A stretch of DNA of 320 nt from Escherichia coli (GCF_003334255.1 NZ_QOWU01000263.1), one strand, 5' to 3'; shown: positions 1-318, numbered from the stretch's first letter. The notes: generated by a model from the letters alone, not told the origin. Program-made: numbers and translations.

Positions 1-4
1 TTTA

Positions 5-16
5 GGGCGCTTTTTT
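5..16. terminator. Possible distal half of an intrinsic terminator, truncated by the window edge: GGGCGC followed by TTTTTT
   Basis: On the + strand, GGGCGC (5-10) is followed directly by a T6 run (11-16). The complementary GCGCCC stem arm would lie left of position 1 and is not visible. On the minus strand the same region reads, just after the tRNA CCA, A6-GCGCCC, i.e. the A-tract side of a possibly bidirectional terminator. Only half the structure is present, so this is tentative. Confidence 0.3.
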
Positions 17-20
17 ACAT

Positions 21-96
21 TGGTGGGTCGTGCAGGATTCGAACCTGCGACCAATTGATTAAAAGTCAACTGCTCTACCAACTGAGCTAACGACCC
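21..96 (-). tRNA. tRNA-Lys, anticodon UUU, 76 nt with genomically encoded 3' CCA
   Basis: Reverse complement of 21-96 is GGGTCGTTAGCTCAGTTGGTAGAGCAGTTGACTTTTAATCAATTGGTCGCAGGTTCGAATCCTGCACGACCCACCA. It folds as a canonical cloverleaf: acceptor stem GGGTCGT/ACGACCC (7 bp), D-arm GCTC/GAGC, anticodon stem GTTGA/TCAAT with loop CTTTTAA (U33, anticodon UUU at window 61-63, A37), T-arm GCAGG/CCTGC with loop TTCGAAT, discriminator A, CCA. Recognised from memory as the E. coli-type tRNA-Lys(UUU) of the lysT family; the specific paralog is not assignable from sequence alone. Confidence 0.96.
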
Positions 97-144
97 ATAC
101 GGGTGTTACCTGAAAGATTTTTACTCGGGGCCAATCTTTAAGAT

Positions 145-162
145 TGGTGGGTCGTGCAGGAT
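145..162 (-). repeat. Orphan 18-nt tRNA-Lys 3'-end fragment (tRNA positions 59-76: end of T-loop, T-stem 3' strand, acceptor 3' strand, discriminator, CCA)
   Basis: 145-162 (TGGTGGGTCGTGCAGGAT) is identical to 21-38 and 243-260, the 3' termini of the two full genes. Identity stops abruptly at 163; the following sequence shows no tRNA body (no T-stem 5' strand, anticodon arm or D-arm). It therefore cannot fold into a tRNA and is a remnant, not a gene. Confidence 0.85.
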
Positions 163-242
163 GACTCGCTTCGCTCGCCCTACGGGCCGTTGCTGGCGCA
201 ACGTTATCCTTCACGCTTAACATCTGAGTTTGATGTTAAAAC

Positions 243-318
243 TGGTGGGTCGTGCAGGATTCGAACCTGCGACCAATTGATTAAAAGTCAACTGCTCTAC
301 CAACTGAGCTAACGACCC
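243..318 (-). tRNA. tRNA-Lys, anticodon UUU, 76 nt with genomically encoded 3' CCA (second copy, identical to 21-96)
   Basis: 243-318 is base-for-base identical to 21-96 (76/76). Same cloverleaf; anticodon at window 283-285. It lies upstream of the 21-96 copy in the direction of transcription. Positions 319-320 are probably the first bases of a short spacer to another upstream gene, which is not visible here. Confidence 0.96.

What the first reader, a model, noticed from the sequence alone, without database searches (positions are those of the whole stretch)
163..205. GC-rich structured core of the spacer with two adjacent short hairpins
The segment between the orphan fragment and the 217-239 hairpin is much more GC-rich than the AT-rich flanks. 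It contains CGTTGC-TGGC-GCAACG (188-203, 6-bp stem, 4-nt loop) and GCCC-TAC-GGGC (177-187, 4-bp stem, 3-nt loop), plus a direct TCGCT-TCGCT repeat (166-175). The compositional contrast and compact structure suggest a distinct module, such as a processing signal or a small stable spacer RNA, but nothing here identifies a function.
Basis: seen in the sequence. Interest (0 to 1): 0.2.

Follow-up and report, generated by a model that had tools for sequence, protein, structure and literature searches.

The report
RtT-type repeat in tRNA-Lys spacer
The GC-rich segment is the inner part of a known repeated element (RtT family) that sits after lysine tRNA genes in E. coli and folds into a small multi-hairpin RNA ending in a copy of the tRNA's own tail, so it is real and conserved but not new.

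Summary
The window is the E. coli lysT tRNA operon read on its antisense strand: two tRNA-Lys(UUU) genes (243-318 and 21-96, minus) flank a 146-nt spacer identical to K-12 lysY-lysZ.

Segment 163-205 is the core of a ~71-nt unit (145-215, minus) that matches Rfam RtT (RF00391): 54.4 bits in context, 41 bits for the spacer alone, against a threshold of 45.

On the transcribed strand the unit forms four helices:
- P1: 5' arm 206-215 paired with an exact copy of the tRNA-Lys 3' end (153-162).
- An ACCCACCA tail follows.

Unit copies are 92-97% identical across spacers and genera, while the flanks are near random. P1, P2 and P4 covary, and G.U wobbles outnumber A.C mismatches 14 to 1, which points to selection on the tRNA-sense RNA.

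Related units follow seven different tRNA species, each carrying that tRNA's own 3' end.

No function has been shown for this copy. By analogy with rtT RNA of tyrT, I infer a nuclease-resistant trailer domain with a tRNA-like 3' end. Verdict: already known, low interest.

The parts
243..318 (-). Upstream tRNA-Lys(UUU) gene (lysY equivalent). The element lies in its 3' trailer.
   Evidence: ARAGORN; Rfam tRNA 79.2 bits; RefSeq annotation in NCTC86 and K-12.
217..239 (-). 5' flanking hairpin UUAACAUC-AAACUCA-GAUGUUAA, between the tRNA 3' end and the unit. It is present in some lys-lys and lys-val spacers and absent from others.
   Evidence: Present in the MFE and centroid folds. The stem changes but stays paired in other genera: ACAUU/GAUGU in C. 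youngae, ACGUC/GACGU in P. gergoviae, CAACAU/AUGUUG in P. vulneris (sequences). It is replaced by unrelated sequence in the lysT-valT and lysZ-lysQ spacers.
206..215 (-). P1 5' strand, CGUGAAGGAU. It pairs with 153-162.
   Evidence: 9 of 10 pairs, with one A.G mismatch at 211/157. RNAalifold predicts the helix independently. Column 3/64 of alignment A1 shows U-A 11, G-C 7 and A-U 1. P1 is in the unconstrained MFE of 4 of 6 spacers. In the window's copy it loses by 1.8 kcal/mol to a spacer-specific alternative.
188..203 (-).
   Evidence: Invariant stem with variable loops in the 19 short-type units. In the wider family the stem is CGUUGC/GCAACG, CGUCGC/GCGACG, CGCCGC/GCGGCG or CGUUGC/GCGACG with a U.G pair. 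G.U 11 against A.C 1.
177..187 (-).
   Evidence: The three C-G pairs are invariant in all units, and the loop is GAA or GUA. Because the pairs never vary, pairing is inferred, not shown by covariation. The closing pair occurs as G-C, G.U, A.C and A-U.
166..176 (-). P4 mini-hairpin G-A-[GC-GAA-GC]-G-A, with two possible sheared G.A pairs (176.166 and 175.167).
   Evidence: 29 distinct sequences occupy this position. 25 form end-to-end stems, with a mean of 3.1 bp against 0.56 when shuffled. Columns 42/51 and 43/50 of A1 show changes on both sides. A tandem GA motif in RtT is reported by the CaCoFold paper (10.1101/2020.02.04.933952).
145..162 (-). Pseudo-tRNA 3' end AUCCUGCACGACCCACCA. Positions 153-162 form the P1 3' strand and 145-152 form a single-stranded ACCCACCA tail.
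   Evidence: Exact 18-nt copy of the 3' end of both flanking tRNA-Lys genes. In 48 related units the equivalent fragment is an exact 14-16-nt copy of the 3' end of a same-strand tRNA in the locus, covering seven tRNA species.
131..147 (-). Spacer-specific hairpin CCAAUCU-UAA-AGAUUGG that overlaps the pseudo-CCA.
   Evidence: MFE and centroid folds. It is not conserved in the other spacers.
21..96 (-). Downstream tRNA-Lys(UUU) gene, the last tRNA of the operon in this strain.
1..20 (-). Start of the operon's intrinsic terminator (AUGUAAAAAAGCGCCCUAAA...), cut off by the window edge.
   Evidence: The full sequence AAAAAAGCGCCCTAAAGGCGCTTTTTT is visible in L001. Terminator removal by RNase P is described in PMC4176162.

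Best explanation
Window 163-205 is the inner part (helices P2, P3 and P4) of a ~71-nt 'short-type' RtT repeat unit at 145-215. The unit is read on the minus strand and lies in the lysY-lysZ-type spacer of the E. coli lysT tRNA operon.

Shown:
- The unit is co-oriented with the tRNA genes and sits between two genes that are transcribed as one operon.
- It is homologous to the 3' two-thirds of Rfam RtT (RF00391).
- It is conserved as a block while its flanks are not.
- Its helices keep pairing through sequence change, with a wobble bias that fits the tRNA-sense RNA.

Inferred fold: a four-way junction. A closing helix P1 forms between a 5' arm and a duplicated tRNA-Lys 3' end. This resembles a T-stem plus 3 bp of acceptor stem, a truncated 'minihelix'. 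In place of the T-loop it encloses three small hairpins, and it leaves an 8-nt tail ending in CCA.

Inferred mechanism, by analogy with rtT RNA of tyrT, whose annotated 3' end is exactly this pseudo-CCA:
1. RNase P cuts at the 5' end of the downstream tRNA-Lys.
2. 3'-to-5' exonucleases remove the AU-rich 48 nt.
3. They then meet a compact GC-rich domain with a tRNA-like ...CCA end.
4. This gives a transient, nuclease-resistant trailer or by-product of about 70-100 nt before tRNA-Lys is fully matured.

My confidence by step: identity as an RtT-family unit about 0.95; RNA-level structure about 0.8; the roadblock or defined-3'-end role about 0.35. No trans-acting function is shown for this copy.
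For: Locus:
- 100% match to E. coli NCTC86, between two annotated tRNA-Lys genes in the cpoB-(tRNA cluster)-nadA region.
- The spacer is identical to K-12 lysY-lysZ.

Family:
- RtT scores 54.4 bits against a gathering threshold of 45 in context.
- The spacer alone scores 41 bits, E = 3.8e-7, over model positions 46-130.
- There are four RtT hits in the NCTC86 cluster and five core copies in K-12.
- PGAP annotates the terminal copy as 'RtT sRNA'. A Salmonella record annotates a homologous unit as 'RtT RNA'.

Conservation:
- The unit is 0.92-0.97 identical, against 0.44-0.57 for most flanks and 0.48 for the shuffled baseline.
- The 66-nt unit is found in 5313 of 5426 complete E. coli genomes, with a median of 7 places per genome.

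Structure:
- 93.9% of cells are paired, against 87.7% in shuffles (0 of 500 shuffles reach the observed value) and 27-48% when the 3' partners are slid.
- RNAalifold recovers P1, P2 and P3.
- P2 variants covary.
- P4 stems average 3.1 bp against 0.56 when shuffled, over 29 distinct sequences.
- The P1 5' arm follows the tRNA it is attached to: Lys CGUGAAGGAU, Tyr GGGGAAGGAU, Arg CAGGGAGGAU. It also follows a within-type change, CAAGGAGGAU/AUCCUCCUGG in P. vulneris.
- G.U 14 against A.C 1 in P2 and P4.

Analogy:
- K-12 rttR (L004 1067-1237) ends exactly at the pseudo-CCA of an RtT unit and starts 7 nt after tyrV.

Processing context:
- RNase P generates lys pre-tRNAs with trailers of up to 150 nt, which RNase II and PNPase then shorten (PMC4176162).
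Against: - No stable small RNA from this spacer is reported. Spacer probes 8 and 9 detected only operon-length species, and only in RNase P mutants. Wild type showed 'surprisingly few' intermediates (PMC4176162). The probe positions relative to the core are not known to me.
- The 43-mer does not fold better than shuffles.
- P2 and P3 never vary within the short subtype, so their pairing there is not tested.
- P1 has a conserved mismatch: A.G in the Lys type, and A.G at another position in the Arg type.
- In this spacer's MFE the 5' arm pairs with a downstream AUCUUUCA instead, which is 1.8 kcal/mol better.
- The own-versus-cross-type advantage of P1 is moderate: 8.4 against 7.2 of 10 positions.
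- The spacer alone falls 4 bits short of Rfam's threshold. It lacks the 5' 45 positions of the model.
- High identity among copies could reflect gene conversion between tandem repeats, not selection.
Confidence: 0.7

Rival explanations
1. Selectively neutral or selfish DNA repeat. On this view the unit is a by-product of repeated unequal crossing-over and gene conversion among tandem tRNA genes. It is carried along in the spacers and homogenised at the DNA level, and its RNA does nothing beyond being degraded.
For: - Copy number varies: NCTC86 has 6 tRNAs and 4 units where K-12 has 7 tRNAs and 5 units.
- The terminal unit sits in a tandem duplication that repeats 54 nt, made up of the tRNA 3' end plus the terminator.
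- tyrT carries a tandem array of near-identical units, three after tyrV and one between tyrT and tyrV.
- Some copies are degenerate in P1, for example two of the three K-12 Arg-type units.
- No stable RNA is reported from this spacer.
Against: - Gene conversion explains identity within a genome. It does not explain 95% identity of the unit next to random-level flanks between Escherichia, Citrobacter and Pluralibacter.
- It does not explain compensatory changes in P1, P2 and P4.
- It does not explain the G.U over A.C bias, which is specific to the transcribed strand.
Confidence: 0.2
2. Cis-acting folding or processing organiser. The pseudo acceptor strand (ACGACCC) and P1 act inside the polycistronic precursor. 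They could transiently pair with the 5' strand (GGGUCGU) of a neighbouring tRNA-Lys, or insulate identical neighbouring tRNAs from mispairing. Either way they would help impose the reported 3'-to-5' order of RNase P cleavage.
For: - The 18-nt fragment is fully complementary to the 5' acceptor strand of both flanking tRNAs.
- Units occur specifically between repeated, identical tRNA genes.
- PMC4176162 reports ordered 3'-to-5' RNase P processing. It also reports that nascent transcripts are protected until transcription is complete, possibly by secondary structure.
Against: - This is pure inference and no experiment links the unit to processing order.
- P1 occupies part of the fragment.
- The valU operon shows the same ordered processing. 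I did not check whether its spacers carry RtT units.
- Terminal units, after the last tRNA and after the terminator, cannot act this way.
Confidence: 0.07
3. Scar of a tRNA-targeting integrative element. The duplicated tRNA 3' end would be an att-type repeat left by site-specific integration into tRNA-Lys, and the core would be what remains of the element.
For: - A duplicated tRNA 3' end downstream of an intact tRNA is the classic signature of integration at tRNA genes (general knowledge).
- The same core is attached to seven different tRNA 3' ends and, in Siccibacter, to a 5S rRNA 3' end.
Against: - Only about 50 nt lie between the tRNA and the unit, and no integrase or cargo is present.
- The unit is essentially absent from phage records. 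There are 4 hits: three are large Salmonella chromosomal contigs and the fourth is a 7.4-kb unannotated record labelled 'Salmonella phage'.
- It is absent from mobilizable plasmids. All 21 hits are predicted non-mobilizable, and the ten records listed range from 280 kb to 5.4 Mb.
- The 5' arm complementary to the fragment is not explained by integration.
Confidence: 0.02
4. Transcription terminator or attenuator hairpin, or chance hairpins in a GC-rich patch.
For: The consensus scan lists 188-203 on the plus strand as terminator-like. The 43-mer's folding energy is within the range of shuffles.
Against: - The scan hit is on the non-transcribed strand with a weak tail (TTATCCTTCA). Two hits against 0.5 +/- 0.8 expected is not compelling.
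- No U-run follows any hairpin on the tRNA-sense strand.
- The downstream tRNA must be transcribed through the unit.
- Chance cannot give 92-97% conservation with covariation.
Confidence: 0.01

Closest known systems
RtT RNA / rttR of the E. coli tyrT operon (Rfam RF00391; Bosl & Kersten 1991, cited from PMC3318445)
   Same: - The core sequence is shared: ACGUUGC-loop-GCAACG-GCCCGAAGGGCGA, then a variable hairpin, then GAGUNAUCC.
- Both lie downstream of a tRNA gene on the same strand.
- Both end in a copy of that tRNA's 3' end including CCA.
- Both have a closing helix between a ...GGAU arm and the AUCC... fragment.

   Different: - The window's unit is a short form. It lacks Rfam model positions 1-45, the GAGAAC-hairpin-GGUUCGAGUCGAGCG...AGCGAGA domain.
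- It carries a tRNA-Lys fragment instead of a tRNA-Tyr fragment.
- P4 is only 2 bp.
- It has no tpr reading frame, only a TTG-started 26-codon remnant.
- It scores 41-54 bits, against 133-138 for the tyrT copies.
- It lies between two tRNA genes, not distal to the last one.
- No released RNA has been demonstrated.
Arg-type short units of the serV-argVYZQ operon (E. coli K-12 L126, and Citrobacter, Brenneria, Pseudescherichia, Enterobacter)
   Same: Same short architecture, with the P1 5' arm directly followed by AACGUUGC. P2 and P3 are identical, and the unit length is the same.
   Different: The P1 arm and the 3' fragment are those of tRNA-Arg(ACG): CAGGGAGGAU/AUCCUCCCGG...GCACCA. The linker is GUA, not GUC, in most copies.
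tRNA acceptor/T-arm minihelix (general knowledge of tRNA architecture)
   Same: P1 is the continuous helix that the T-stem 3' strand plus the first acceptor 3' nucleotides would form with their natural partners. It is followed by a single-stranded end terminating in CCA.
   Different: - Only 3 of the 7 acceptor pairs are present, so the tail is 8 nt rather than 4.
- The 7-nt T-loop is replaced by about 46 nt forming three hairpins.
- ARAGORN does not call it a tRNA or tmRNA.
- Recognition by RNase P, the CCA-adding enzyme or RNase T is untested.
Functional tRNA-spacer RNAs such as 3'ETS-leuZ (Lalaouna et al. 2015, cited)
   Same: Both are pieces of a tRNA precursor outside the mature tRNAs that could persist after processing.
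   Different: 3'ETS-leuZ acts as an sRNA sponge. No base-pairing partner or Hfq dependence is known or tested for this unit, and there is no sequence similarity claim.

Membership tests
RtT RNA (Rfam RF00391) | Covariance-model score at or above the curated gathering threshold (45 bits) | tested here: inconclusive
   In its natural context the hit at 145-311 (minus) scores 54.4 bits and passes. However, the model's 5' half is then aligned onto the neighbouring tRNA body, with a 44-nt insertion and several non-standard pairs. The spacer alone scores 41.0 bits, E = 3.8e-7, over model positions 46-130 only. That is 4 bits below threshold. Homology is clear. Full-length membership is not.
RtT RNA (Rfam RF00391) | Lies in a tRNA operon, downstream of and co-oriented with a tRNA gene | tested here: met
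   The unit lies between two tRNA-Lys genes on the same (minus) strand.
RtT RNA (Rfam RF00391) | Ends in a copy of the 3' end of the adjacent tRNA including CCA (model positions about 113-130) | tested here: met
   Positions 145-162 are an exact 18-nt copy of the tRNA-Lys 3' end. The same rule holds in 48 related units across seven tRNA species.
RtT RNA (Rfam RF00391) | Conserved core hairpin plus the GCCCGAAGGGCGA segment (model positions about 66-95) | tested here: met
   This region is aligned with posterior probability near 1. It differs from the consensus at the loop and at one compensated stem pair.
RtT RNA (Rfam RF00391) | 5' domain of the tyrT-type unit (model positions 1-45) | tested here: not met
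   This domain is absent. In the short type the ...GGAU arm is directly followed by AACGUUGC. The window's unit is therefore a truncated variant.
RtT RNA (Rfam RF00391) | Released from the primary transcript as a discrete stable RNA (the property that defined rtT RNA) | not testable with these tools
   No RNA data are available here. Published Northern blots with lysY-lysZ spacer probes do not report such a species (PMC4176162).
Intrinsic (Rho-independent) terminator | GC-rich stem-loop followed by a U-run on the transcribed strand | tested here: not met
   No site was found on the minus strand within the spacer. There is a weak plus-strand match at 188-203 with the tail TTATCCTTCA. The total number of hits is within the chance range.
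tRNA / tmRNA gene | Cloverleaf or tRNA-like domain detectable by ARAGORN or the Rfam tRNA and tmRNA models | tested here: not met
   Only the two flanking tRNA-Lys genes are called. Nothing is called in 97-242.
att site / scar of a tRNA-targeting integrative element | Duplicated tRNA 3' end bounding an inserted element that carries an integrase, or homology to phage or plasmid DNA | tested here: not met
   The duplication is present. However, the two copies are only 80 nt apart and no gene lies between them. The unit is essentially absent from phage records and from mobilizable plasmids.
Tpr (protamine-like protein) coding region of tyrT repeats | ATG-initiated 29-codon ORF (MRSFDQGSTRAPARERCRRQRPEGRSAQR) | tested here: not met
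   There is only a TTG-started 26-codon frame at 121-201, which shares QRPxGR through nucleotide homology. The tpr start region belongs to the missing 5' domain.

The most novel reading that the evidence does not exclude
The three-hairpin module (P2-P3-P4) may be a portable structured element of gammaproteobacterial stable-RNA operons, not a peculiarity of tyrT. In the truncated scan it was found in several settings:
- inserted into duplicated 3' ends of seven tRNA species, in the long type apparently within the T-loop, between ...GGUUCGA and AUCC...;
- inside a duplicated 5S rRNA 3' end in Siccibacter;
- immediately 5' of 5S rRNA in Brenneria;
- as at least 20 dispersed or tandem 74-nt repeats in Alcanivorax that Rfam does not recognise.

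The novel reading is that it is, or once was, a mobile or copy-and-paste element that targets the 3' portions of stable RNA genes. Alternatively it could be a general protective or processing cap for stable-RNA precursors.
Probability: 0.2. Interest if true: 0.5.

Novelty: already known. Interest (0 to 1): 0.15.

Why it matters
For genome annotation the point is practical. RefSeq labels only the terminal copy in this operon as 'RtT sRNA', with a note that wrongly says it is processed from the tyrT transcript. It leaves the three or four internal copies unannotated, because the Rfam model reaches threshold there only by borrowing the neighbouring tRNA.

For biology, the unit shows that the 'orphan' tRNA fragment and the GC-rich core are one folded element. 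Its closing helix co-varies with whichever tRNA it follows.

If the inferred roadblock or defined-3'-end role is right, these units shape how the long trailers of five of the six E. coli tRNA-Lys genes are matured. If the wider reading is right, they are one face of a broader and largely uncatalogued family of structured repeats attached to stable-RNA genes.

None of this overturns current knowledge.

Tried and rejected
- Thermodynamic significance of the two hairpins alone: not significant.
- Terminator or promoter reading: rejected.
- Tpr-like ORF: rejected.
- TRIP1 repeats (PMC10888264): I suspected 'tRNA-linked repeats', but they are unrelated triple repeats at non-tRNA loci.
- Literature searches for a description of the lysT/tyrT spacer homology or of RtT as an intergenic repeat family found nothing in the held library. 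Bosl & Kersten 1991 is not held.
- 'RttR' searches gave mostly unrelated hits. The RepRanger paper merely lists rttR as REP-containing.
- Supplementary probe sequences of PMC4176162 are not held, so I could not place probes 8 and 9 relative to the core.
- Phage and plasmid searches to test an integrative-element origin: essentially negative.
About half of those were chance matches inside GC-rich coding regions of Actinomycetes and others. The taxonomic picture is therefore a sample, not a census.
- MAFFT mis-registered P4 in the three rows with a 2-bp stem, so I assessed P4 by script instead.
- A kink-turn reading of the G.A pairs was considered. I dropped it because the strand order of helix, G.A pairs and 3-nt linker does not match a standard k-turn (my own reasoning, not tested).

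Full report
**What the window is.**
ARAGORN and Rfam find two identical tRNA-Lys(UUU) genes on the minus strand, at 243-318 and 21-96. The whole window matches E. coli NCTC86 at 100%. It lies in the tRNA cluster between cpoB and nadA. The 146-nt spacer (97-242) is identical to the K-12 lysY-lysZ spacer.

**Checking the observation.**
The two hairpins, the TCGCT-TCGCT repeat and the compositional contrast are all at the stated coordinates: 67% G+C in 163-205, against 39% and 35% in the flanks. Taken alone the 43-mer does not fold better than dinucleotide shuffles (z = -0.92 minus strand, -0.24 plus strand). The whole spacer does (z = -2.9). Thermodynamics alone does not lift the hairpins above chance. 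Comparison with other copies does.

**What it is.**
Rfam's RtT model (RF00391) matches 145-311 on the minus strand at 54.4 bits, against a gathering score of 45. The alignment shows that only model positions from about 46 to 130 fall in the spacer. The model's 5' half is stretched over the neighbouring tRNA.

Scoring the spacer alone gives 41 bits, E = 3.8e-7, for model positions 46-130. The element is thus a clear homologue of the 3' two-thirds of RtT and lacks its 5' domain.

The NCTC86 cluster has four such hits, one after each of four tRNA-Lys genes. K-12 has five copies of the core. RefSeq annotates only the terminal one as 'RtT sRNA'. The tyrT copies, where RtT was defined, score 133-138 bits.

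**Extent and conservation.**
I aligned whole spacers from K-12, Citrobacter youngae, C. werkmanii and Pluralibacter gergoviae. The stretch from CGUGAAGGAU to CCACCA (window 215 to 145) is 92-97% identical to the window. The 5' and 3' flanks are mostly 44-57% identical, against a shuffled baseline of 48%. The exception is the 5' flank of the paralogous K-12 lysW-valZ spacer, at 89%. The 66-nt unit is present in 5313 of 5426 complete E. coli genomes, with a median of seven places per genome.

**Anatomy on the RNA strand.**
- P1: CGUGAAGGAU (215-206) pairs with AUCCUGCACG (162-153), the first ten bases of the 18-nt copy of the tRNA-Lys 3' end. There is one A.G mismatch.
- P2: 203-198 with 193-188, loop GCCA.
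- P3: 187-184 with 180-177, loop GUA.
- P4: G174-C168 and C173-G169 with loop GAA, flanked by G176.A166 and A175.G167.
- A GUC linker (165-163) follows P4, and the tail ACCCACCA (152-145) follows P1.

The 'direct repeat' is P4.

**Evidence for the fold.**
I used 19 distinct short-type units (Lys and Arg types, seven genera).
- 93.9% of cells form standard pairs, against 87.7% after shuffling the partners (0 of 500 shuffles reach the observed value) and 27-48% when the partners are slid by 1-3 columns.
- RNAalifold independently returns P1 (in part), P2 and P3.
- P2 and P3 do not vary within this subtype, so they are untested there.
- In the wider family the P2 stem occurs as CGUUGC/GCAACG, CGUCGC/GCGACG, CGCCGC/GCGGCG and the U.G intermediate, with free loops.
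- P4 has 29 distinct sequences, of which 25 make end-to-end stems. The mean is 3.1 bp, against 0.56 when shuffled.
- The P1 5' arm follows the tRNA: Lys CGUGAAGGAU, Tyr GGGGAAGGAU, Arg CAGGGAGGAU. Where P. vulneris tRNA-Arg has U for C, the arm has A for G.
- The own-versus-cross-type advantage is moderate: 8.4 against 7.2 of 10 positions.
- G.U pairs outnumber A.C mismatches 14 to 1 in P2 and P4. This favours selection on the tRNA-sense RNA over a strand-symmetric DNA hairpin. My inclusion rule slightly favours G.U.
- The CaCoFold study also lists RtT among RNAs with covariation support and a tandem GA motif.

Caveats: in this spacer's MFE the 5' arm pairs with a downstream AUCUUUCA instead, which is 1.8 kcal/mol better. 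P1 is in the MFE of four of six spacers.

**The wider family.**
I scanned one genome per species with the core pattern. It returned units next to tRNA-Lys, Tyr, Arg(ACG), Arg(CCG), Pro(UGG), Pro(CGG) and Ser(GGA). These were in Enterobacterales, Orbaceae (Gilliamella), Oceanospirillales-type genera and unclassified Gammaproteobacteria.

In 48 cases the core is followed by an exact 14-16-nt copy of the 3' end of a same-strand tRNA in that locus. Two architectures exist:
- the short one of the window (Lys and Arg(ACG));
- a long one (Tyr, terminal Lys, Pro, Arg(CCG)), in which extra sequence, including a ...GGUUCGA piece resembling the T-arm 5' half, precedes P2.

Rfam recognises the Pro- and Lys-linked long units at 75-95 bits.

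**How it most likely works.**
Shown: the unit is part of the operon transcript, and it has a conserved, strand-specific, covarying fold ending in a tRNA-type CCA tail.

Known from the literature: RNase P separates the lys pre-tRNAs from the 3' end of the transcript backwards. This leaves trailers of up to 150 nt, which RNase II and PNPase shorten before RNase T finishes (PMC4176162).

Known from annotation: the tyrT family member RttR starts 7 nt after tyrV and ends exactly at the pseudo-CCA of an RtT unit.

Inferred: in the lys spacers the unit gives the trailer a compact GC-rich domain with a tRNA-like 3' end. Exonucleolytic trimming would pause there, giving a transient 70-100-nt trailer or by-product. 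I rate this step at about 0.35. The published Northern blots with lysY-lysZ spacer probes do not report such a species in wild type, and I could not place the probes.

**Rivals.**
- A neutral repeat homogenised by gene conversion. This is supported by copy-number variation and tandem duplications. It is opposed by cross-genus conservation, covariation and the wobble bias.
- A cis-acting organiser of precursor folding or RNase P order. This is inference only.
- A scar of a tRNA-targeting integrative element. It is opposed by the 80-nt spacing between the two copies, the lack of any gene between them, and near-absence from phage and mobilizable plasmid records.
- A terminator, or chance hairpins.
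- The tpr reading frame of the tyrT repeats is not preserved.

**Comparison with what is known, and novelty.**
The element works like, and is homologous to, RtT. As a strict member it passes the Rfam threshold only in context and lacks the 5' domain, so it is best called a short-type RtT unit. The family, its tRNA-operon location and its pseudo-tRNA end are established, in Rfam RF00391 and in Bosl & Kersten 1991 as cited. The locus is in the best-studied bacterium. I therefore rate it already known and of low interest.

What I did not find described in the held literature:
- the short/long distinction;
- the co-variation of the closing helix with the host tRNA;
- the occurrence of the same three-hairpin module in a duplicated 5S rRNA 3' end in Siccibacter;
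- the module directly 5' of 5S rRNA in Brenneria;
- the module as at least 20 dispersed or tandem 74-nt repeats in Alcanivorax that Rfam does not recognise.

These observations underlie the 'novel case'. They rest on a truncated scan and remain unproven.

Noticed in passing
L105-L119 (Alcanivorax sp. 24), e.g. L109 755-902, L112 606-753, L116 3679-3826: There are at least 20 dispersed copies, some in tandem with a 74-nt period. The unit reads AAAAAUUGCC-GGGA-GCAAUUUUU / AACGUUGC-UGU-GCGACG / GCCC-GAA-GGGU / GACCGCC-AUGGA-CGGCGGUC / AUAAAAAA. It shares the P2-P3 module of RtT but is not next to tRNA genes and has no pseudo-tRNA end. Rfam gave no hit at E <= 0.1 for the three loci tested. Similar units occur in Pseudomonas subflava (L079), Aliiglaciecola (L018) and Alishewanella (L064).
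   Followed up: partly
L086 205-350 (Siccibacter colletis); also L083 and L085: Downstream of a complete 5S rRNA (89-204) lies a second copy of the last 23 nt of 5S. It is split by the module: GAGAGTAGGA | hairpin + P2 + P3 + P4 | AAACTGCCAGGCAT. A tRNA-Asp follows. This extends the rule 'the unit carries the 3' end of the upstream stable RNA' to 5S rRNA. Rfam RtT gives only 34 bits, below threshold.
   Followed up: partly
L073 14525-14592, minus strand (Brenneria roseae): The same module, with a 5' hairpin AAAAUCGUC-GGGA-ACGAUUUU and a P4 flanked by CGA...GAG, sits immediately 5' of a 5S rRNA gene and has no pseudo 3' end.
   Followed up: no
L001 1834-1864 and 1990-2020; window 1-20: The operon terminator (AAAAAAGCGCCCTAAAGGCGCTTTTTT), together with the preceding tRNA-Lys 3' end, occurs twice as a 54-nt direct repeat. 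One copy follows the last tRNA-Lys and the other follows the terminal RtT unit. The terminal unit therefore sits in a tandem duplication and lies beyond the first terminator.
   Followed up: partly
L001 versus L003/L005: NCTC86-type strains carry six tRNAs (Lys-Val-Lys-Val-Lys-Lys) where K-12 has seven. One tRNA-Lys-plus-spacer unit (the lysZ-lysQ type) is missing. Only 4097 of 5426 complete genomes have a place covering at least 80% of the window.
   Followed up: no
That note cannot be right at this locus. The internal units, which score higher, are not annotated.
   Followed up: yes
L126 1152-1223, 1425-1498, 1840-1913, minus strand (K-12 serV-argVYZQ): There are three short-type units carrying the tRNA-Arg(ACG) 3' end. 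Two of them have a mismatch in the P1 arm, which suggests decay.
   Followed up: partly
window 217-239 (minus): The hairpin upstream of the unit keeps its pairing with different sequences in Citrobacter, Pluralibacter and Pseudescherichia lys-lys spacers. It occupies the position of the 5' hairpin of the Alcanivorax and Brenneria units. It is absent from the lysT-valT and lysZ-lysQ spacers.
   Followed up: partly
window 115-122 versus 206-213 (minus): In this spacer only, UGAAGGAU can also pair with a downstream AUCUUUCA (8 bp including one G.U). This gives an MFE 1.8 kcal/mol below the P1 fold. It could be a chance alternative or a switch.
   Followed up: partly
L005 384-440; L012, L045, L062, L120 (terminal Lys-type long units): The 5' region of the long units contains a palindrome of the form GAACCUGC-N-GCAGGUUC, made of a T-arm 5' half and its reverse complement (e.g. 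GATTCGAACCTGCAGCAGGTTTGAG). The tyrT units have GAACCUUC...AAGGUUC. It changes with the tRNA type.
   Followed up: no
window 23-96 and 245-318, plus strand: There are sub-threshold Rfam matches to plastid UTR families (Plastid-ycf2, Plastid-psbl-rps4) on the antisense strand of the tRNA genes. I take these to be artefacts of tRNA-derived sequence in those models.
   Followed up: no
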